Under the pieces are notes generated by a model. The model saw only the letters and a program-made list of their open reading frames with translations, was not told the DNA's origin and ran no database searches. Below are positions 4,966 to 22,441 of a stretch of 54,611 bases of DNA, in pieces; positions within the stretch are counted from its first letter, which is position 1; every line of letters begins with the position of its first letter. The stretch is from an uncultured Candidatus Saccharibacteria bacterium (GTDB lineage: Bacteria; Patescibacteriota; Minisyncoccia; Phycocordibacterales; UBA5272), in the NCBI GenBank assembly GCA_964461165.1, contig CAYWTC010000001.1, positions 1-54,611 of the forward strand. The letters are read 5' to 3'. The position numbers and the translations under genes are program-made.

Positions 4966-5331
4966 TCATGCAACCTTCAAATGCATGAGGAAATGGTCTG
5001 GAGGAACCACACCGGTTCTGGACCAGGTGTAGATCTTTGTCGCACCGCCGTGCTCCAGAAAGTCCTTGATAGTGAGAATCCCCACCTCAGCAAGTTTGCG
5101 CACCGTATACGATGACGCAAACACACCGATTCGGACAAGTTGAACGAAAATGTGATTCCAAAGCAACGCGCCCGCGCGGTCCACAGACGCCCTCATCTCT
5201 TTGATTTCAATGAGGGTAAGAGGCGACCACTCGCCTGTGCCAGTGGCAACTGACCAATCTGCAAGCAGCGCCGTCACACGGCCCATAGCAGTGTGAACTG
5301 ATCTCCGAATAGCCAGGTAATCGGCTGTCAT
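4966..5331 (-). CDS. hypothetical protein, 121 aa (GC-rich cassette A, gene 2)
   Basis: AAGGAG (5338-5343) lies 6 nt upstream of ATG 5331. The ORF follows the gene 1 stop by 18 nt. No family recognised. There is a weak helix-hairpin-helix-like stretch, TVRKLAEVGILTIKDFLEHG. Confidence 0.6.
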   Translation of the reverse strand: MTADYLAIRRSVHTAMGRVTALLADWSVATGTGEWSPLTLIEIKEMRASVDRAGALLWNHIFVQLVRIGVFASSYTVRKLAEVGILTIKDFLEHGGATKIYTWSRTGVVPPDHFLMHLKVA

Positions 5332-5348
5332 GACTAACTCCTTTTCTT

Positions 5349-6047
5349 TCAAATGATATTTCTCGTCGCAAGCGGCGACATCGCACGCAGCGCAATATAG
5401 CGCAGCCCTGTGACATGGCCAATGAGGGCAGCAACCTTTTTCTCGGACCTTGCACGCAGCATGTCAGTCACCATAAGGTGGTGACCGTCAGCGAGGCCTT
5501 CAAGCGAGATGTCTTCCAATCCCGGTTGACGCAGCACAAGATGTACCTTGCGCCGCAAGATATCAACCACTGCATCGAGATCATCTTGGTCGGGAGCATT
5601 TGTTTCTGCCTCATTGAGAGCGATCATGGCATGCAAGAGCGCCTGCAAAAGCTTGCTACCTTCCAAGGTTGAGGTTGGCACAACAGAAGCATTCTCGTTG
5701 TGCATTTCAAGCACCACAATTTTGCGCAGGTCGCGACTTGCCGACATGGCCATGCGGACTTGTTGGTACGGAGCATTGATGAAACCACGAAGCGTGGTCA
5801 CACCAACCCCTTGCTCAACCCTTGCCGCAATCAGCTTTGTCATACACCCGGTGAGGGCAATGTCAGATGCCTCACCATTCAAGGCAACATCGCGGGCATC
5901 CGCCATAACCTTGATCAAATCAATGAACTTGCTCACATCAATGAGTCTCATCGTGTTGGACCCTGAAAGCAGGATGAGTGCTTTCTTGATACCCCGATAC
6001 AGCGCAGCTGCAAAAGCCGCGTTTGATCCAATGAACGTCGTTGCCAT
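5349..6047 (-). CDS. hypothetical protein, 232 aa (GC-rich cassette A, gene 1)
   Basis: GGAGG (6052-6056) lies 4 nt upstream of the ATG. The region is GC-rich (36/60 at 5401-5460). No family recognised. Confidence 0.65.
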   Translation of the reverse strand: MATTFIGSNAAFAAALYRGIKKALILLSGSNTMRLIDVSKFIDLIKVMADARDVALNGEASDIALTGCMTKLIAARVEQGVGVTTLRGFINAPYQQVRMAMSASRDLRKIVVLEMHNENASVVPTSTLEGSKLLQALLHAMIALNEAETNAPDQDDLDAVVDILRRKVHLVLRQPGLEDISLEGLADGHHLMVTDMLRARSEKKVAALIGHVTGLRYIALRAMSPLATRNII

Positions 6048-8059: not shown

Positions 8060-9169
8060 ATGTCAGCATATAGCGCTTCCGGGGTCAACTACCAGCAACT
8101 CGACCCGGCAAAGATCATTTTTCAAAATGCGGCGGCTGCAACCGAGCTGCTCACGAGAATTGAAGCTCTGACGAGGCCGCTCCCGTGGACACGTGGAGAG
8201 AGTTGCTTTCTGCATCGTATCGACGGGAGCGATCTCTGTCTTGCCCATGTACACGAGACACTCGGCACGAAAAACCTCGTGGCAGATGCCATGGAGCTGC
8301 TCACCGGCAGAAACTACTACCACGGCATCGGACAGGACGGTGTGGCCATGGTGGTAAACGACATGATCACCCTCGGGGCTCTGCCGATCTCAGTCGCAAT
8401 GCACCTCTCTGCGGGGTCCTCTGCCTGGTTCAAGGACTTAGACCGGGTTACCAATCTTGCACAAGGGTGGGCGCAAGCCTGTGTGTTCGCAGGAGCTACA
8501 TGGGCAGGCGGCGAAACGCCGGCACTGACAGACATTCTCATGCCAGATGTCTGCGAACTGTCCGGATCAGCTCTCGGTGTGGTGCATGAAGATCACATCA
8601 TGAACCCACTTCATTTAGAGCAGGGGGATGAGATGGTTTTCCTCAGCAACCCCGGCCTCGGAGCGAACGGGTTCACGCTTGCTCGCGAAATTTCATACCT
8701 TCTTGACGAAGGATATCTGACAAAGATCGACAACGATGGCACGACCTACGGCGAAGCCTTGCTCACACCAACGCCAATCTATGTATCTGCGCTGCGCAGC
8801 TTGCAACGTAACGGCCTCAAGCCTGTATATGGCGTCAACGTGACAGGGCACGGCATGTTGAAGCTGATGCGGGCGCCGCAGTCTTTCACCTACCGCGTGA
8901 CCGCTCTCCCAGTGAAAACACCCGCCGTGTTTGAACGTATCCAGGACGCGAAGAAGATTTCCAAAGAAGAAATGTACTCGACGTACAACATGGGTATCGG
9001 ATTCGTATTCTTTGTGAAAAACGGTGAGGCAGGTACCGCAGTAGACCTTCTGGCGAAGGCTGGCTTTGGTGCTTGGCGGGGCGGTTATGTTGGTAGGGCA
9101 GGCACCAAACAGGTAATCATTGAAGAGCTTGGGGTTGTATACAAAGGAGCTCAGCTCAGCATTCGTTAA
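8060..9169 (+). CDS. AIR-synthase (PurM)-related protein (GC-rich cassette B)
   Basis: 369-aa ORF with a PurM-superfamily layout (TLGTKNLVAD, VNDMITLGA, GGETP, NVTGHG, TYNMGIGF). AAGGAA SD lies 7 nt upstream. Region is GC-rich (34/60 at 8341-8400). Confidence 0.7.
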   Translation: MSAYSASGVNYQQLDPAKIIFQNAAAATELLTRIEALTRPLPWTRGESCFLHRIDGSDLCLAHVHETLGTKNLVADAMELLTGRNYYHGIGQDGVAMVVNDMITLGALPISVAMHLSAGSSAWFKDLDRVTNLAQGWAQACVFAGATWAGGETPALTDILMPDVCELSGSALGVVHEDHIMNPLHLEQGDEMVFLSNPGLGANGFTLAREISYLLDEGYLTKIDNDGTTYGEALLTPTPIYVSALRSLQRNGLKPVYGVNVTGHGMLKLMRAPQSFTYRVTALPVKTPAVFERIQDAKKISKEEMYSTYNMGIGFVFFVKNGEAGTAVDLLAKAGFGAWRGGYVGRAGTKQVIIEELGVVYKGAQLSIR

Positions 9170-9228: not shown

Positions 9229-9282
9229 TTACTTGCAAGAATAAATTATTGAGTAGTATACTCATATCTACAACATCATAGT

Positions 9283-9417
9283 TGTTATCAAGAGTGTGGA
9301 GAGAGATTTGGCTCTATGACCCACCAGCAACCCTCAGTAATGAGTAGGTGCTTCCAACCCCGAGACGGGGAAAGATAATTTTGTCTTTCTCTCCACGGGC
9401 TTGTGAGAGTTTTTTTA
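9283..9417 (+). promoter_or_regulatory. SAM-I (S-box) riboswitch with terminator expression platform
   Basis: Matches the SAM-I core: UUAUCAAGAG, GGAGAGA, GGCUC, UGA, GCAACC, GGUGC and AGAUAA closing P1. GUGGAGAG (aptamer) can pair with CUCUCCAC (9389-9396), which otherwise forms a terminator stem with gtgagag, followed by a T-run at 9410-9417. Sits directly upstream of metK. Confidence 0.85.
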
Positions 9418-10472: not shown

Positions 10473-10488
10473 TAGAACAAATGTTCTA
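10473..10488. promoter_or_regulatory. LexA operator (Cheo/SOS box, GAAC-N4-GTTC type)
   Basis: Perfect palindrome TAGAACAAATGTTCTA, ending 2 nt before a TACACT -10 and 14 nt before the lexA ATG. Confidence 0.7.
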
Positions 10489-10489
10489 C

Positions 10490-10495
10490 TACACT
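10490..10495 (+). promoter_or_regulatory. -10 hexamer (TACACT) of lexA
   Basis: Lies 6 nt upstream of ATG 10502 and abuts the SOS box. No SD. Confidence 0.4.
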
Positions 10496-10501
10496 GCATG
10501 C

Positions 10502-11062
10502 ATGGAAGATAGCCTTGCAATCACAACATTTTTTAATGAACATAACCGTATGCCCACCTATGAGGAGATGAAAGACCTCTTTGGTGTCGCCTCAAAAAAT
10601 ACTGTCTCATACCGAGTGGATAAACTAATCGAGCAAGGGATACTCGAAAAGTACGCTGGCAAACTATCCCTCGTGCAAACAGGGTCCGTCATGCGCCTCG
10701 GTACAGTACAAGCAGGGTTCCCCACTCAGGCAGAAGAGTACACCGCAGAGCTCGTATCACTTGATGACTTCCTCATCGAACGAAAAGAATCTACCTACAT
10801 GCTCGAGGTGCAAGGTGAGTCGATGATAGATGCCGGCATTATGGAAGGAGATCTCGTCCTCGTCGAACGTGGACGTACACCACGAAAAGGAGATATCGTA
10901 CTAGCCCTTGTCGACAATGAGTACACACTCAAATACTTAGAAACAGAAAAAGGTCGCCCCGTGCTAGTACCAGCAAACAAAGCATTCAAAAAAATCTACC
11001 CCAACCCAAACACACTCCGCATCGAAGCAATATTAAAAGCAGTTATTAGAAAATATCGATAA
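10502..11062 (+). CDS. lexA: LexA repressor (S24 peptidase)
   Basis: N-terminal winged HTH. Cleavage and catalytic region motifs are VQAGFP, GESMIDAGI, GDLVLVE and EYTLKYL. The ORF-track ATG at 10481 lies inside the operator, so ATG 10502 is preferred. Confidence 0.85.
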   Translation: MEDSLAITTFFNEHNRMPTYEEMKDLFGVASKNTVSYRVDKLIEQGILEKYAGKLSLVQTGSVMRLGTVQAGFPTQAEEYTAELVSLDDFLIERKESTYMLEVQGESMIDAGIMEGDLVLVERGRTPRKGDIVLALVDNEYTLKYLETEKGRPVLVPANKAFKKIYPNPNTLRIEAILKAVIRKYR

Positions 11063-11066
11063 TCAT

Positions 11067-11498
11067 ATGTCACCACGATCAACACACCGAGCAATCATAC
11101 GAGTCACCACCACAGGCAAACGAGACTCTCGCGTTAACTACAGTCGTCGTATGTATGCAATCATTCGCAAGTACACACCGGACGTAGCAGAGGGGAATAC
11201 CAATGAATGCTTTGCAGATCTCACAGGACTACGCACATTTTTCAAAATGACATATGCAGAAATAGCAGAAAAGATACGCGAAGATGTAACTCAGGAACTG
11301 GGTATTACCTGCACACTTCGCATAGCAACTACAGATGCATATGAACAAGCACGTCACACGTCCAAAAAGGAGCGAAGTGTATCAACATACAAAGAGATTA
11401 ATTCACTTTTCTCAGGACGCACATCCGCTCGACGAGCAGTACACACTCGCACAAATTTTAAGAAGCTTTCAGTGCCATTTATAGGAAAAGTCTCATAA
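11067..11498 (+). pseudogene. remnant of Y-family (UmuC/DinB-like) DNA polymerase
   Basis: The 143-aa ORF retains NECFADLTG (compare SIDEAFLDLTG) and a GITCTLRIATTDAYEQARHTSKK segment (compare LTVGVGIAQTKTLAKLA). It lacks the N-terminal catalytic Asp motif. It also stops about 250 aa short, about 75 nt before GC-rich cassette C begins. Confidence 0.55.
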
Positions 11499-11702
11499 TA
11501 TGAGCTTTACGGTGGTCTTTTTATAGATATCACCAGGAACTATTTACATTATTTATAATGTGTGTTAGGATTGCTCGCAGGTTTGTACATTGAATCACTC
11601 CCGTCCGCAAGGATTGGAACTTGATGTGCTTGCCGACCTTTGCCCCTTAAACCGTCATATCGACGGAGAGGGGTTGTGATTCTACAAGGAAAAAGGAAAC
11701 AC

Positions 11703-12428
11703 ATGAACCCGAACCTGAAGACCTCCGCCGCCTTTCGCCAGAGCCTGATTTCTGGGGCAATTTTCGCGGCAGTTGCTGCGATCGTGACTGCTTCCGGCCA
11801 GGTGATGGCGGCGGCGGCCAACCCGGACACCACCGACAAAACCATGTCGCTGGCGGTTGGTCAGGCACGTACCGCACTGTCGGCGTTTGCTGACACCATT
11901 GCGCACTGCAAAACCGAGGAAATCGCCAAGGGCGATGCCTACGCCCCGATTGATCACACCCTGCTGACGCAGGACGTGATCGACAGCCTCGGCGAGGGCG
12001 GCTTTGCCAAGCGTGGCACGATGCGGTTGGTGATTACCTTCCTCCACAAGGAAGGTGAGCCCACTTTCCAGCGCGTCGAGGAAATCGCCAATGTGGCCCT
12101 CGGCAAGCTGACCCTTGCGCTGGACGAGATCGAAGTCGTTGGCAATGGCGACCAAGCAGGCATGCTTGGTGCCAGCCTGAAGTTCAGCCACGCAGTGGCT
12201 GGCATGATGGCAGACCTGACGGCAACGGCAACGCTCATTGCGCAGGCTGATCTGATTGCCAACGACTGGTCCTTTGTGCCTCTGGCGTCGGCACACGGTG
12301 TCATGACCACCAACCTGGTCGGTGGCATGCCGAAAACCGATGCAGGCATCGACGACATCCGTAGCAAGACGACGGATCCGGGTAACGTTGGCACTGCGCA
12401 GGCCGATCAGCTGGCCACGGCCACGTAA
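11703..12428 (+). CDS. hypothetical secreted protein, 241 aa (GC-rich cassette C)
   Basis: AAGGA lies 5 nt upstream of ATG 11703. Signal-peptide-like N-terminus (KTSAAFRQSLISGAIFAAVAAIVTASGQVMAAAA). Very GC-rich (40/60 at 11761-11820). Own terminator. No family recognised. Confidence 0.65.
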   Translation: MNPNLKTSAAFRQSLISGAIFAAVAAIVTASGQVMAAAANPDTTDKTMSLAVGQARTALSAFADTIAHCKTEEIAKGDAYAPIDHTLLTQDVIDSLGEGGFAKRGTMRLVITFLHKEGEPTFQRVEEIANVALGKLTLALDEIEVVGNGDQAGMLGASLKFSHAVAGMMADLTATATLIAQADLIANDWSFVPLASAHGVMTTNLVGGMPKTDAGIDDIRSKTTDPGNVGTAQADQLATAT

Positions 12429-12457
12429 TGCGGCCCCGGGGTTTCGATCTCCGGACT

Positions 12458-12484
12458 AGGCACCTCACTTGGGTGCCTTTTTTA
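12458..12484 (+). terminator. intrinsic terminator of cassette C
   Basis: Stem aggcacc/ggtgcct with loop tcacttg, followed by TTTTT. Confidence 0.75.
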
Positions 12485-12506
12485 ATACTCAACAATGTAG
12501 TTCAAG

Positions 12507-12515
12507 TGATACACT
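12507..12515 (+). promoter_or_regulatory. extended -10 element (TGATACACT) of MliC-like gene
   Basis: Lies 7 nt upstream of ATG 12523. No SD. Confidence 0.5.
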
Positions 12516-12522
12516 GATATTC

Positions 12523-12876
12523 ATGTACACGAAATATATATTTCTTCCTCTTGGCGTCGGGGTTCTTGTCATCCTCTCTGGGTACTGGTATACGACACGC
12601 ATACCATCACAGTCACAAACATACACATTTGCTTGTGCATCAGACAAAACTATTCGTGCCACATTTCACACCGATAAAGATCCTCGTGTCGACTTGGTTT
12701 TAAACAATGGTGACACTGATGTTAATTGGTCATTTTCACTACCTCAGGTTATCTCTGCATCTGGTGCAAAGTATGCAAATAGTGATGACTCTATGATCTT
12801 TTGGACACGAGGAGATACCGCATTCATACAAGACCGAGGGAATGTGACATACACTGACTGTATAACGACACAGTAG
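12523..12876 (+). CDS. MliC-like (membrane-bound lysozyme inhibitor of C-type lysozyme) domain protein
   Basis: N-terminal TM anchor, then a Y.F.C...I.A.F ... SASGAKYAN ... FWTRGD ... C pattern as in the MliC family. Confidence 0.6.
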   Translation: MYTKYIFLPLGVGVLVILSGYWYTTRIPSQSQTYTFACASDKTIRATFHTDKDPRVDLVLNNGDTDVNWSFSLPQVISASGAKYANSDDSMIFWTRGDTAFIQDRGNVTYTDCITTQ

Positions 12877-21251: not shown

Positions 21252-22091
21252 CTACTTGGGCGCGGTTGATCCTGGCACAAACTCCTGATGCCGAAACGCT
21301 CCAACAAGCCTGGCAACATAGACCGTCATATGCGCCAGCGCAAGCCGCGCCTTGACGTTCTCAGGGGCTCTCACAGCTGGCACAACATCTGCTTCGTAGG
21401 CGTCCCAATATGAGCGCGCCACGAACGTCACTGCGCGCTCGGTGCTCGGCTCTAGGTGCACCACGTGACAGTAGTTGCAGTCGTCATTTGCAGCTCGCGC
21501 TACACGCGAAGCTGTGCCCGGGATAAACGGGTCGAGTAGATCTTTCGTCACAACAACGGTGACCGTGTGCAACTTTCCGTTTGATTTGCCCCGCGCATCT
21601 ATCGCTATGACGTAGCGACTCGCCCCAGGAACCCTCATGATCTCTCGCGGGAGCTTCTGGAAGAGCTTACACAGACCTTCAGGTGACATGGTTACTGGGA
21701 GCGTGCCAATGGCGTACCCTTCAGAACCATCAACCTGAAAGCAGCCTTCCCAGTACGGGGTCACTAGCAAATCATCAAATGAAAGCTTGTCAGGTTTCTT
21801 ATCTGATGGTTTTTTTTCTGACGGTTTTACCCTGATGACAAAAGGGCGACAGCGCTCACCATCTTCGCCAACAAAAGATACCAGGCCGTCTTGGTAGAGA
21901 TCCGCAGAAGGAGCAAGAAACTGTTGGTCTAGTATGCGAAAAGCAGAACAAGCTGTACGCAGTACCTTGACCACCAGAACCCGCTCTTCTTGGCGAGAAG
22001 CAAAGAAAGAAAGCAGACTTCTCTGTAAACCTACCGAGAAGTCTTTCACTGAAAACCACGGAGTGAACGTGGTGCGAATAGTATCGCTCAT
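21252..22091 (-). CDS. hypothetical two-domain protein, 279 aa (GC-rich cassette E, gene 1)
   Basis: GAGG lies 6 nt upstream of ATG 22091 (the ORF-track TTG is at 22103). Lys/Pro-rich linker KPSEKKPSDKKPDK between two domains. GC-rich (36/60 at 21361-21420). No family recognised. Confidence 0.6.
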   Translation of the reverse strand: MSDTIRTTFTPWFSVKDFSVGLQRSLLSFFASRQEERVLVVKVLRTACSAFRILDQQFLAPSADLYQDGLVSFVGEDGERCRPFVIRVKPSEKKPSDKKPDKLSFDDLLVTPYWEGCFQVDGSEGYAIGTLPVTMSPEGLCKLFQKLPREIMRVPGASRYVIAIDARGKSNGKLHTVTVVVTKDLLDPFIPGTASRVARAANDDCNYCHVVHLEPSTERAVTFVARSYWDAYEADVVPAVRAPENVKARLALAHMTVYVARLVGAFRHQEFVPGSTAPK

Positions 22092-22441
22092 GGGGAACCT
22101 CAACTTTCTATAAGTAAGAGGGGGGTTAAAAATAGGACTCTTAAAAACTTATCCTACAGAGAAACCTAGGCAAAGTCAATTATGTAAAAATAAACCAGAG
22201 GCCTGAGAGGGGTGACCTCGTTCTCAAACAGCGCCAGTCTCTAAAGTTTTCTGCACGCGAATTGTTATACCGTGGGAATGCAAAGTTGTGATGATATATA
22301 AAGACAAGAGAGGACAAGGGTTTTTTAATATAGGTAATGTCGCACAATATATCTTTTACGACTATAAGGTCTTGGAATTATCCACAGGTCAAGCTCTATG
22401 CCTATGACTCATAGCTTCTAACTACGTGACCCCAACTACAC

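What the first reader, a model, noticed from the sequence alone, without database searches (positions are those of the whole stretch)
11499..12484. Very GC-rich secreted-protein cassette sits where the SOS polymerase gene breaks off
Composition jumps at about 11575, and 40/60 G+C was counted at 11761-11820. As expected for high-GC DNA, three long overlapping ORFs appear in other frames.

The coding frame is identified by three features: an AAGGA SD, a signal-peptide-like N-terminus ending AAAANP, and a clean terminator (12458-12484). Codon choice (CTG, CCG, GCG, CGT, ACC, AAA) looks like that of a moderately high-GC proteobacterium-type donor and is unlike the backbone.

The 5' UTR contains a nested hairpin, CCCCUuaaaCCGUCauaucGACGGagAGGGG, at about 11643-11673.

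The cassette begins about 75 nt after the polymerase remnant ends and abuts the MliC-like gene promoter. This is consistent with an insertion that deleted the polymerase 3' portion. The 241-aa Ala/Thr/Gly-rich exported product has no recognisable family.
Basis: partly seen in the sequence, partly recalled or inferred. Interest (0 to 1): 0.65.

Follow-up and report, generated by a model that had tools for sequence, protein, structure and literature searches.

The report
Hypervariable GC-rich exported-protein gene
In a tiny wastewater bacterium of the Candidate Phyla Radiation (CPR), one expressed gene for an exported protein exists as many very different versions in otherwise near-identical strains, keeps a foreign GC-rich codon style in all of them, and did not break the neighbouring polymerase-like gene.

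Summary
Window 11600-12450 is 55-63% GC in a 44% GC core chromosome of a Patescibacteria (CPR) bacterium. The 241-aa ORF at 11703-12428, its promoter, Shine-Dalgarno site (SD), leader hairpin, signal-peptide-like N-terminus and terminator are all present. Independent assemblies confirm both junctions.

The 143-aa "polymerase remnant" is the full-length form of a conserved family of 141-155 aa (more than 217 members). It always follows the lexA-like gene, in relatives with and without the cassette, so nothing was deleted.

The GC-rich gene is not a recent one-off insertion either. It is a hypervariable locus. At least four alleles (A, B, mosaic B', C; down to 36% aa identity) sit between 98-100% identical flanks, in strains whose backbones are 96-99% identical. 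A sister species carries at least three complete, remotely homologous alleles at the same site (hhalign probability 80%).

Every allele keeps GC3 of 0.74-0.83 and the same non-native codon preferences. No other homologue exists among about 15 billion proteins. Metatranscriptome contigs begin in the leader and run into allele C.

Best reading: an orphan, exported, all-helical protein at the cell surface or host interface, under diversifying selection, with alleles swapped by homologous recombination. The biochemical function is unknown. The persistent GC-rich codon usage is unexplained.

The parts
11067..11498 (+). Upstream neighbour. A 143-aa 'pol-short' protein, a conserved stand-alone fragment of the Y-family polymerase palm domain. 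It is not a truncation.
   Evidence: - Pfam IMS (impB/mucB/samB Y-family polymerase domain) positions 73-139 only.
- More than 217 homologues of 141-155 aa.
- Same start and same end in relatives.
- NEC aligns with the catalytic DEA of Dbh/Dpo4.
- AF2 pLDDT 78.9. Top Foldseek hits are all Y-family polymerases.
11543..11571 (+). Sigma-70-type promoter of the cassette: TTTACA, 17 nt, TAGGAT, with TG before the -10 hexamer.
   Evidence: - Consensus scan.
- Conserved in the sister species L004/L112.
- RNA contigs begin 24-27 nt downstream of the -10 hexamer.
11578..11702 (+). 5' leader of about 125 nt. Hairpin 1 spans about 11580-11634. The GC-rich hairpin 2 spans 11642-11674 and is followed by a U-rich stretch. 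Then come the SD sites (AAGGA at 11686 and 11693).
   Evidence: - MFE -44 kcal/mol, z = -3.4.
- 98-100% identical among alleles A, B, B' and C up to position 11675. The 27 nt before the ATG are variable.
- The sister-species leader has a similar multi-hairpin fold, z = -3.0.
- No Rfam match.
11703..12428 (+). Hypervariable CDS, allele A, 241 aa. It encodes an exported, acidic, Ala/Thr/Gly-rich protein predicted to be all-helical.
   Evidence: - In-frame indels. Differences by codon position are 59/35/80. dN/dS is 0.41 against allele B.
- GC3 is 0.74.
- Alleles B, B' and C occupy the same site.
- Allele C is transcribed.
- AF2 gives an all-alpha model with pLDDT 52.6.
11703..11819 (+). Signal-peptide-like or signal-anchor N-terminus, residues 1-39, with Ala-X-Ala before N40-P41.
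   Evidence: - Hydropathy and charge heuristics on all alleles.
- The n-region motif (A/G)FR(Q/K) is conserved among alleles A-C.
- SignalP was not available.
12429..12484 (+). Conserved 3' UTR. It holds a GC-rich hairpin (CCGGGGTTTCGATCTCCGG) and an intrinsic terminator (stem 12458-12478 plus T-run).
   Evidence: - Terminator scan.
- 99% identical between alleles A and B, and conserved in allele C.
- The sequence after the T-run resembles that of the sister species.
12523..12876 (+). Downstream neighbour. An MliC-like lysozyme-inhibitor gene with native composition.
   Evidence: - Pfam MliC, E = 5.7e-12.
- GC3 is 0.36.
- 95-100% identical among strains.
- Absent at this position in the sister species.
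10481..11062 (+). Context: a lexA/umuD-like S24 peptidase gene. A LexA-box-like palindrome, TAGAACAAATGTTCTA, lies at 10473-10488.
   Evidence: - Peptidase_S24, E = 1.2e-25. LexA TIGR00498 scores 107.5 bits.
- The palindrome was read directly from the sequence.

Best explanation
Window 11543-12484 is a self-contained, expressed transcription unit in the core chromosome of a Patescibacteria (Paceibacteria-type CPR) bacterium from wastewater. It encodes a lineage-restricted orphan protein of about 220-242 aa. The protein has a Sec-type signal peptide or signal anchor and an acidic domain predicted to be all-helical.

Shown:
- The gene is a hypervariable locus. The population holds several anciently diverged alleles: A, B, the A/B mosaic B', and C.
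- These alleles lie between a conserved leader and a conserved terminator, in strains whose backbones are nearly identical.
- A sister species holds further alleles of the same remotely homologous family at the same position.
- The neighbouring 143-aa Y-family fragment is an intact member of its own conserved family. The cassette did not truncate it.

Inferred mechanism:
- Alleles are exchanged between strains by homologous recombination, with breakpoints in the conserved leader hairpin and 3' UTR and sometimes inside the CDS.
- They are maintained by diversifying or negative frequency-dependent selection.
- That selection acts because the product is exposed at the cell surface or secreted. 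There it meets a partner that itself varies: the host bacterium's surface or defences, or a phage.
- The leader, a GC-rich hairpin plus a U-rich tract just before the SD, may act as an attenuator-type regulatory element.

Not explained: why all alleles keep a GC-rich, proteobacterium-like codon usage.
For: Junctions are real:
- Logan contigs from other runs cover 11430-12170 and 11688-12587 with 0 differences.

Same site, different alleles:
- Between alleles A and B the flanks are 98-100% identical and the CDS is 75% identical. dS is 0.55 and dN 0.22.
- B' is 93% identical to A over the first 15 codons, then 98-100% identical to B.
- Allele C is 36-38% aa identical to A. Its strain's backbone is about 99% identical to the window.
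- The last 30 codons of A and C are 73-82% identical, which indicates a mosaic.

Sister species:
- Same promoter, a related leader, and alleles D1-D3 (31-67% identical to one another) with GC3 of 0.76-0.83.
- L004 and L112 are 97.9% identical overall. Their leaders match at 151 of 151 positions, but the start of the CDS is only 80% identical.
- Homology between the two allele sets: hhalign probability 80%, E = 1.4e-5, 185 collinear columns.

Coding frame:
- Indels are multiples of 3. Differences by codon position are 59/35/80.

Export:
- The n-region, h-region and Ala-X-Ala pattern is present in all alleles.

Expression:
- Metatranscriptome contigs start at 11595/11598 and continue into allele C (662 nt, depth 13).
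- Depth is zero on pol-short and on MliC.

Orphan status:
- Only one other cluster exists in 5.8e9 clusters and 1.84e9 representatives, even when searching with a 4-allele profile.

No mobile-element signature:
- No recombinase in the 54 kb, no flanking repeats, and a housekeeping context.

pol-short is intact:
-.
Against: - Function is inferred only from export signals and the pattern of variation. Nothing experimental or homology-based supports a host- or phage-interaction role.
- Overall dN/dS (0.41) does not show positive selection.
- The signal peptide was judged by heuristics, not by SignalP or DeepTMHMM.
- The structure model has low confidence (pLDDT 52.6).
- Allele C was joined from two contigs of one sample that overlap by only 13 nt.
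- The source of the allele pool was not observed. Donor strains with diverged backbones were not recovered.
- The stable foreign codon usage is not what in-situ evolution in a 44% GC genome predicts.
- RNA evidence comes from assembled contigs without strand information, and DNA carry-over cannot be formally excluded.
Confidence: 0.6

Rival explanations
1. A GC-rich cassette was recently inserted from a proteobacterial donor downstream of lexA and deleted the 3' part of an SOS Y-family polymerase gene.
For: - The composition jump and foreign codon usage are real.
- The upstream ORF matches only IMS positions 73-139.
Against: - The 143-aa ORF is the normal full length of a family with more than 217 members of 141-155 aa.
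- About 38 relatives without any GC-rich gene downstream have the same start and the same stop.
- The protein also lacks the N-terminal catalytic region, which a 3' deletion cannot explain.
- The cassette gene exists as at least 7 deeply diverged alleles in two sister species.
- No donor homologue was found among about 15 billion proteins, or in plasmids, phages or viral contigs.
Confidence: 0.03
2. Repeated import. Each allele was acquired separately from an unsampled GC-rich reservoir, such as the host bacterium, its phages or plasmids. Each replaced the previous allele at a preferred site bounded by the leader hairpin and the 3' hairpin.
For: - All alleles, down to 14-36% aa identity, share one non-native codon dialect. 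It includes a GAA preference, which looks like adaptation to another translation system rather than plain GC pressure.
- GC3 is 0.74-0.83 in all alleles.
- The divergence boundaries are sharp, at 11675 and at the stop codon.
- Horizontal gene transfer (HGT) into Patescibacteria is documented (PMC12455944).
Against: - No homologue exists outside this locus in 15e9 proteins, although wastewater is heavily sampled.
- No integrase or att-like variable repeats were found.
- The mosaic alleles B' and A/C show exchange among resident alleles.
- The conserved signal-peptide motif and the collinear homology across two species fit vertical descent plus recombination.
Confidence: 0.15
3. Programmed antigenic variation. 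The expressed locus is rewritten by gene conversion from silent cassettes elsewhere in the same genome, as in pilE/pilS or vlsE.
For: - Conserved flanks around a variable interior, and mosaic alleles.
Against: - No partial copies exist in the 54-kb window (tblastn E >= 1.6).
- No extra allele fragments appear in the contigs of the samples that hold allele A.
- No additional homologous ORFs appear in the protein collections.
- Each sample shows one allele at matching depth.
- The whole genome was not available.
Confidence: 0.05
4. Artefact. The region is a chimeric assembly, a contaminant, or not protein-coding on the + strand. The antisense ORF was the one called in two contigs.
For: - The in-register antisense frame is open end to end in 4 of 5 alleles.
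- Gene callers chose a 303-aa antisense ORF in L099 and L100.
Against: - At least 20 independent contigs from more than 6 studies show the same junctions.
- Differences by codon position (59/35/80) fit the + frame. They would give position 1 greater than position 3 on the antisense frame.
- The SD, ATG, promoter and terminator are all oriented on the + strand.
- The antisense frame has a stop in allele C.
- An open antisense frame only requires avoiding TTA, CTA and TCA, which is expected at this GC3.
Confidence: 0.02

Closest known systems
Strain-variable surface or secreted protein loci maintained by allelic replacement. Recalled examples: the flagellin fliC central region, Neisseria porB/tbpB, and Streptococcus pneumoniae pspA.
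   Same: - Deeply diverged alleles at one chromosomal site between conserved flanks.
- Mosaic alleles.
- An exported product.
- Near-identical genomic backgrounds carrying unrelated-looking alleles.
   Different: - The protein family is an orphan with no known fold or function.
- The organism is an ultra-small CPR bacterium.
- All alleles keep a strongly non-native GC-rich codon usage, which is not a feature of those classic loci.
- The comparison rests on recalled knowledge of those systems, not on a test here.
Horizontally acquired genomic islets in Patescibacteria (PMC12455944).
   Same: - A compositionally deviant segment in a streamlined CPR genome.
- It encodes a hypothetical protein.
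   Different: - It is a single gene, not a multi-gene island, and has no mobility genes.
- It predates a species split.
- It is multi-allelic.
- No donor is detectable.
Integron or other site-specific gene cassettes.
   Same: - One ORF with sharp boundaries.
- Composition differs from the backbone.
- Hairpins lie at both boundaries.
   Different: - The cassette carries its own promoter.
- The 3' hairpin is constant, not cassette-specific like attC.
- No integrase lies within 54 kb.
- The alleles are homologous to one another rather than unrelated cassettes.
ImuB-type inactive Y-family polymerase homologues of SOS mutagenesis cassettes. This applies to the upstream neighbour only.
   Same: - A Y-family-derived protein with a substituted catalytic Asp.
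- It is encoded next to a LexA-like repressor gene.
   Different: - pol-short has only about 143 aa: a palm fragment plus a short tail.
- It has no thumb or little-finger domains.
- No imuA or dnaE2 partner was seen in the window.
- The ImuB comparison is from memory and was not tested.

Membership tests
Y-family DNA polymerase (DinB/UmuC), for the upstream 'remnant' | Full catalytic core of about 350-420 aa with palm, fingers, thumb and little finger | tested here: not met
   - The protein has 143 aa.
- It matches only IMS positions 73-139 of 148, and DinB model positions about 79-148.
- All >217 family members are 141-155 aa.
Y-family DNA polymerase (DinB/UmuC), for the upstream 'remnant' | Catalytic acidic residues: an N-terminal Asp and the D-E pair of the SIDEAYLD motif | tested here: not met
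   - The N-terminal motif region is absent.
- N46-E47-C48 aligns with D-E-A of Dbh/Dpo4.
- N46 is invariant in the 11-sequence alignment and nearly invariant (90% or more) among 53 sequences.
Y-family DNA polymerase (DinB/UmuC), for the upstream 'remnant' | Palm-domain fold | tested here: met
   - AF2 model pLDDT is 78.9, and 81-95 over residues 11-100.
- The top Foldseek PDB hits are Rev1, Dbh, Dpo4 and Pol iota, with probability about 1.0.
Sec-dependent exported protein (signal peptidase I substrate or signal anchor) | Basic n-region, hydrophobic h-region of 10-20 residues, small residues at -3 and -1, and no further transmembrane segment | tested here: inconclusive
   - The pattern is present in alleles A, B, B', C and D1.
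- The maximum 15-mer hydropathy is 1.55-2.37 in the N-terminus, against 1.16-1.57 for the maximum 19-mer in the rest of the protein.
- AAA/ASA-type motifs are present.
- No dedicated predictor (SignalP, DeepTMHMM) was available, so cleavage versus anchoring is undecided.
Integron-type gene cassette | Integrase nearby, promoterless ORF, and a cassette-specific attC inverted repeat at the 3' end | tested here: not met
   - No recombinase was found among the ORFs scanned across the 54.6 kb; all matches are housekeeping-type families.
- The cassette has its own promoter.
- The 3' hairpin is identical between alleles.
- No flanking direct repeats were found.
Diversity-generating retroelement target | Adenine-specific substitutions confined to a short variable repeat, with a template repeat and a reverse transcriptase nearby | tested here: not met
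   - Differences are spread over the whole CDS and over all base pairs: 92 transitions and 82 transversions, with A involved in a minority.
- No repeat of the region occurs in the window.
- No reverse transcriptase is present.
HbpS-like / DUF336 (PF03928) | Score at or above the Pfam gathering threshold, consistently across family members | tested here: not met
   - The score is 16.5 bits against a cut-off of 25.
- The match overlaps the signal peptide.
- Only 1 of 7 alleles matches.
Multi-allelic hypervariable locus (allelic replacement by homologous recombination) | At least 3 deeply diverged alleles at one orthologous site, conserved flanks, mosaic alleles, and backgrounds far more similar than the alleles | tested here: met
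   - Alleles A, B, B' and C are 36-94% aa identical.
- Flanks are 98-100% identical and backbones 96-99% identical.
- B' and the A/C pair are mosaics.
- The sister species shows the same pattern.
Silent-cassette gene-conversion systems (pilE/pilS, vlsE type) | Promoterless partial copies elsewhere in the same genome | tested here: inconclusive
   None were found in the 54.6-kb window, in sample contigs or in the protein collections. The complete genome was not available.

The most novel reading that the evidence does not exclude
The locus could be a CPR-specific host-interface determinant whose alleles are continually drawn from, or codon-adapted to, a GC-rich partner such as the host bacterium or its mobile elements.

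Under this reading the maintained proteobacterium-like codon dialect is functional, not a fading trace of HGT. The dialect is CTG/GGC/ACC/CCG/AAG with GAA retained, and it is identical across alleles that share only 14-36% of their residues.

If so, allele identity would track host range. It would give the first genetic handle on host specificity in Paceibacteria-type episymbionts.
Probability: 0.1. Interest if true: 0.8.

Novelty: new variant of a known kind. Interest (0 to 1): 0.55.

Why it matters
Paceibacteria-type CPR bacteria are uncultured, and what determines their partner specificity is unknown. This gene is expressed, exported and population-hypervariable, it sits at a fixed chromosomal site, and it is easy to amplify from its conserved flanks. 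That makes it a concrete candidate for a host- or phage-interaction determinant and a ready strain marker.

It also poses a clean evolutionary puzzle. The gene family is older than a species split, yet it keeps a foreign codon usage in a 44% GC genome.

There are two practical lessons. First, a short Y-family-like ORF next to lexA in these genomes is a conserved mini-protein, not a pseudogene. Second, gene callers tend to pick the antisense ORF in such GC-rich genes. This hides the family from protein databases.

Tried and rejected
- Pfam, NCBIfam, PHROGs and PADLOC on the 241-aa protein and its alleles gave nothing above threshold. The weak HbpS-like hit is spurious.
- PDB sequence searches with 2-, 4- and 7-allele profiles gave nothing.
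- The AF2 model of allele A is all-alpha with pLDDT 52.6. Foldseek PDB hits are generic helical bundles with E >= 0.07. I treat them as uninformative.
- Protein and profile searches of 5.8e9 clusters and 1.84e9 representatives found only allele B. P0003 is a repeat-protein false hit.
- Viral contigs, phage records and plasmid records gave no match.
- An exact promoter-pattern scan of JGI metagenomes gave 0 hits.
- The metagenome scan with the pol-short profile returned 21 loci, none with a GC-rich gene downstream.
- Rfam found nothing on the leader or cassette at E <= 1.
- No tRNA or tmRNA was found.
- A promoter-motif search in the window used a mis-registered pattern and is void.
- Exact look-ups of the window's pol-short and MliC proteins found no record. 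Cluster members were used instead.
- No silent copies or flanking repeats were found.
- Donor assignment by k-mer signature could not be done, because no reference genomes were available offline.
Full report

Yes. In 200-nt windows, GC rises from 0.375-0.42 (11400-11699) to 0.55-0.635 (11600-12499) and drops back to about 0.42.

The CDS at 11703-12428 has 61.2% GC. That is 5.1 SD above the mean of all 726-nt windows and the maximum in the 54.6-kb window.

- AAGGA occurs at 11686 and 11693.
- A sigma-70-like promoter (TTTACA, 17 nt, TAGGAT, with TG) lies at 11543-11571. A terminator lies at 12458-12478 plus a T-run.
- The nested hairpin at 11643-11673 is part of a leader fold with z = -3.4.
- The minus strand carries overlapping ORFs of 204, 146 and 98 aa.

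GC3 is 0.74, against 0.32-0.45 for backbone genes.

**2. What organism and context?**

The window is core chromosome. It encodes aminoacyl-tRNA synthetases, DnaK/DnaJ, RpoA, MurG, FtsW and MraY, and carries a SAM riboswitch before metK. No recombinase or transposase was found.

Relatives found through the LexA-like protein are metagenome-assembled genomes (MAGs) labelled Paceibacterota, Nomurabacteria or Saccharibacteria. Runs holding the sequence are wastewater, activated-sludge and river metagenomes.

**3. Assembly artefact?**

No. A 741-nt Logan contig from one run covers 11430-12170, and a 900-nt contig from another covers 11688-12587. Both have zero differences. More than 20 further contigs from other studies show the same architecture.

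**4. The 'polymerase remnant' is not a remnant.**

The 143-aa ORF at 11067-11498 matches only IMS positions 73-139. It therefore lacks N-terminal as well as C-terminal polymerase parts.

In about 38 related loci an ORF of 142-153 aa follows the lexA-like gene. It has the same start, the same internal motifs and the same VPFIGKVS* end, at 41-65% identity. The protein collection holds more than 217 homologues, all of 141-155 aa among those listed.

The motif NEC aligns with the catalytic DEA of Dbh/Dpo4. The Asn is invariant in the 11-sequence alignment and nearly invariant among 53 sequences. AlphaFold gives a confident compact fold (pLDDT 78.9), and its best PDB matches are all Y-family polymerases.

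So this is a conserved, presumably non-catalytic mini-protein. None of these relatives except the sister species has a GC-rich gene downstream. The cassette therefore deleted nothing.

**5. The cassette gene is a hypervariable locus.**

The only database homologue, P0002 (67% identity), lies on contigs with the same pol-short end, promoter, leader, terminator and MliC start.

*A versus B.*
- Pol-short end 100% identical.
- Promoter to hairpin 98%.
- 3' UTR 99%.
- CDS 75% identical at the nucleotide level.
- The 27 nt before the ATG are scrambled.
- Indels are multiples of three. Differences by codon position are 59/35/80.
- dS = 0.55, dN = 0.22, dN/dS = 0.41.

*Further alleles.* Strain variants of pol-short and MliC led to more contigs.
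- Allele B' comes from six samples. It is A-like for its first 15 codons (93%) and B for the rest (98-100%).
- Allele C comes from three samples. I joined it from two contigs of one sample that overlap by 13 nt. It is 36-38% identical to A and 33% to B. Its leader matches A's to within 1 nt up to position 11692, and its 3' UTR differs at 2 positions. Its last 30 codons are 73-82% identical to A.

*Backbones.* Backbone identity to the window is about 96% for the B' strain and about 99% for the allele-C strain. The CDS is the single deep trough in identity.

The substitution spectrum is general, not adenine-specific. There are no silent copies in the window and no flanking repeats.

**6. A sister species shows the same thing.**

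Its LexA is 85% identical and its MetK 94%. Its order is pol-short, the same promoter, a related multi-hairpin leader, then a 222-224-aa GC-rich gene (GC3 0.76-0.83) with a signal-peptide-like N-terminus, then a terminator. After that come a second similar promoter, a 183-aa orphan, YgjP, SpoU and HI0933.

Three complete alleles (31-67% identity) and a fourth partial one were recovered.

L004 and L112 are 97.9% identical overall, and their leaders match at 151 of 151 positions. The first 104 nt of the CDS are only 80% identical.

Profile-profile comparison of the two allele sets gives probability 80% and E = 1.4e-5 over 185 collinear columns. The family therefore very probably predates the split of the two species, whose backbones are about 80% identical.

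**7. Expression.**

Four metatranscriptome runs contain contigs that begin at window 11595/11598. That is 24-27 nt after the predicted -10 hexamer. The contigs run through the leader into allele C (662 nt, depth 13). Depth is zero on pol-short and on MliC.

This fits an independent transcription unit driven by the predicted promoter. The contigs carry no strand information.

**8. What is the protein?**

All alleles have:
- a basic n-region;
- a hydrophobic h-region;
- small residues at a plausible signal-peptidase site;
- no further hydrophobic segment;
- a net charge of -8 to -13;
- 13-16% Ala.

AF2 predicts long helices, but at low confidence. Foldseek, PDB, Pfam, NCBIfam, PHROGs and PADLOC give nothing.

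The searches of about 15 billion proteins return no further family member, whether run with a single sequence, exhaustively, or with a 4-allele profile. There is one caveat. In two contigs the gene caller took a 303-aa antisense ORF instead, so some copies may be hidden in the databases.

The antisense frame is open only because TTA, CTA and TCA are avoided at this GC3. It has a stop in allele C, and the codon-position pattern favours the + frame.

**9. Mechanism.**

*Shown:* one locus, many old alleles, mosaicism, conserved flanks, near-identical backgrounds, transcription, and export signals.

*Inferred:*
- Alleles move between strains by homologous recombination, with breakpoints in the conserved leader and 3' UTR.
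- They persist under diversifying or frequency-dependent selection on an exposed protein. The likely partner is at the interface with the host bacterium or with phages.
- The leader's GC-rich hairpin plus U-rich tract, seen in both species, suggests attenuation-type control. This is speculative.

**10. What remains unexplained.**

All alleles share one non-native codon dialect:

| Codon | Share in the alleles | Share in the backbone |
|---|---|---|
| CTG (of Leu) | 60-73% | 6% |
| GGC (of Gly) | 67-78% | 15% |
| ACC (of Thr) | 52-64% | 16% |
| AAG (of Lys) | 70-100% | 40% |

GAA still makes up 44-73% of Glu codons in the alleles, against 65% in the backbone.

A recent transfer awaiting amelioration does not fit a family older than a species split. 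Pure GC pressure, such as biased gene conversion, does not predict the GAA preference. Repeated import from a GC-rich reservoir lacks any detectable donor. This is the most interesting open point.

**11. Verdict.**

The locus is a new, orphan example of a known evolutionary kind: a multi-allelic, hypervariable exported-protein gene. It has one unusual feature, a stably foreign codon usage, and it sits in a poorly understood bacterial lineage.

Noticed in passing
window 11067-11498; loci L004-L026 and L078-L098: A conserved family of 141-155-aa proteins derived from the Y-family polymerase palm (more than 217 members). It always follows a lexA/umuD-like gene in Paceibacteria-type CPR genomes. 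The catalytic Asp is replaced by Asn, the fold prediction is confident, and the function is unknown.
   Followed up: yes
window 10473-10488: A perfect palindrome, TAGAACAAATGTTCTA (GAAC-N4-GTTC type, LexA-box-like). It overlaps the first ATG of the lexA-like ORF. The real start is probably the ATG at 10502, as in relatives whose proteins begin MEDxx or MKDxx.
   Followed up: partly
window 9282-9381: SAM riboswitch (RF00162, 64 bits) upstream of a short, 325-aa S-adenosylmethionine synthetase gene.
   Followed up: no
window 8060-9169: The PurM/AIR-synthase-like gene has elevated GC (55-59%, GC3 0.61). It is somewhat more variable between strains (90-94% identity) than the surrounding backbone.
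   Followed up: partly
window 4966-6047 (-) and 21252-22103 (-): Further GC-elevated islands (GC3 0.54-0.57) encode orphan proteins of 127, 231 and 282 aa, with no Pfam, PHROG or PADLOC match. The sister species also has a GC-elevated orphan between the UvrD-like and PD-(D/E)XK genes (L112 150-611).
   Followed up: partly
window 11703-12428 minus strand; L099 5483-6394; L100 2203-3114: The antisense frame in register with the CDS is open from end to end in 4 of 5 alleles. Automatic gene calling chose this 303-aa antisense ORF in two contigs. This is an annotation trap that hides the family from protein databases.
   Followed up: yes
window 12523-12876; L112 6468-7019: The MliC-like lysozyme-inhibitor gene downstream of the cassette occurs only in the window's species. 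The sister species instead has a 183-aa orphan behind a second copy of the cassette-type promoter.
   Followed up: partly
L034 9898-10548: A Magasanikbacteria MAG (41% GC) carries a 216-aa ORF with GC3 of 0.81 and a lipoprotein-like N-terminus (LAAC), about 3 kb from its lexA-like gene. This is another GC-rich exported-protein gene in an AT-rich CPR genome.
   Followed up: no
samples DRR236214 and DRR236223 (L102, L103, L117, L118): The window's species (allele B') and its sister species (allele D2) occur in the same samples.
   Followed up: no
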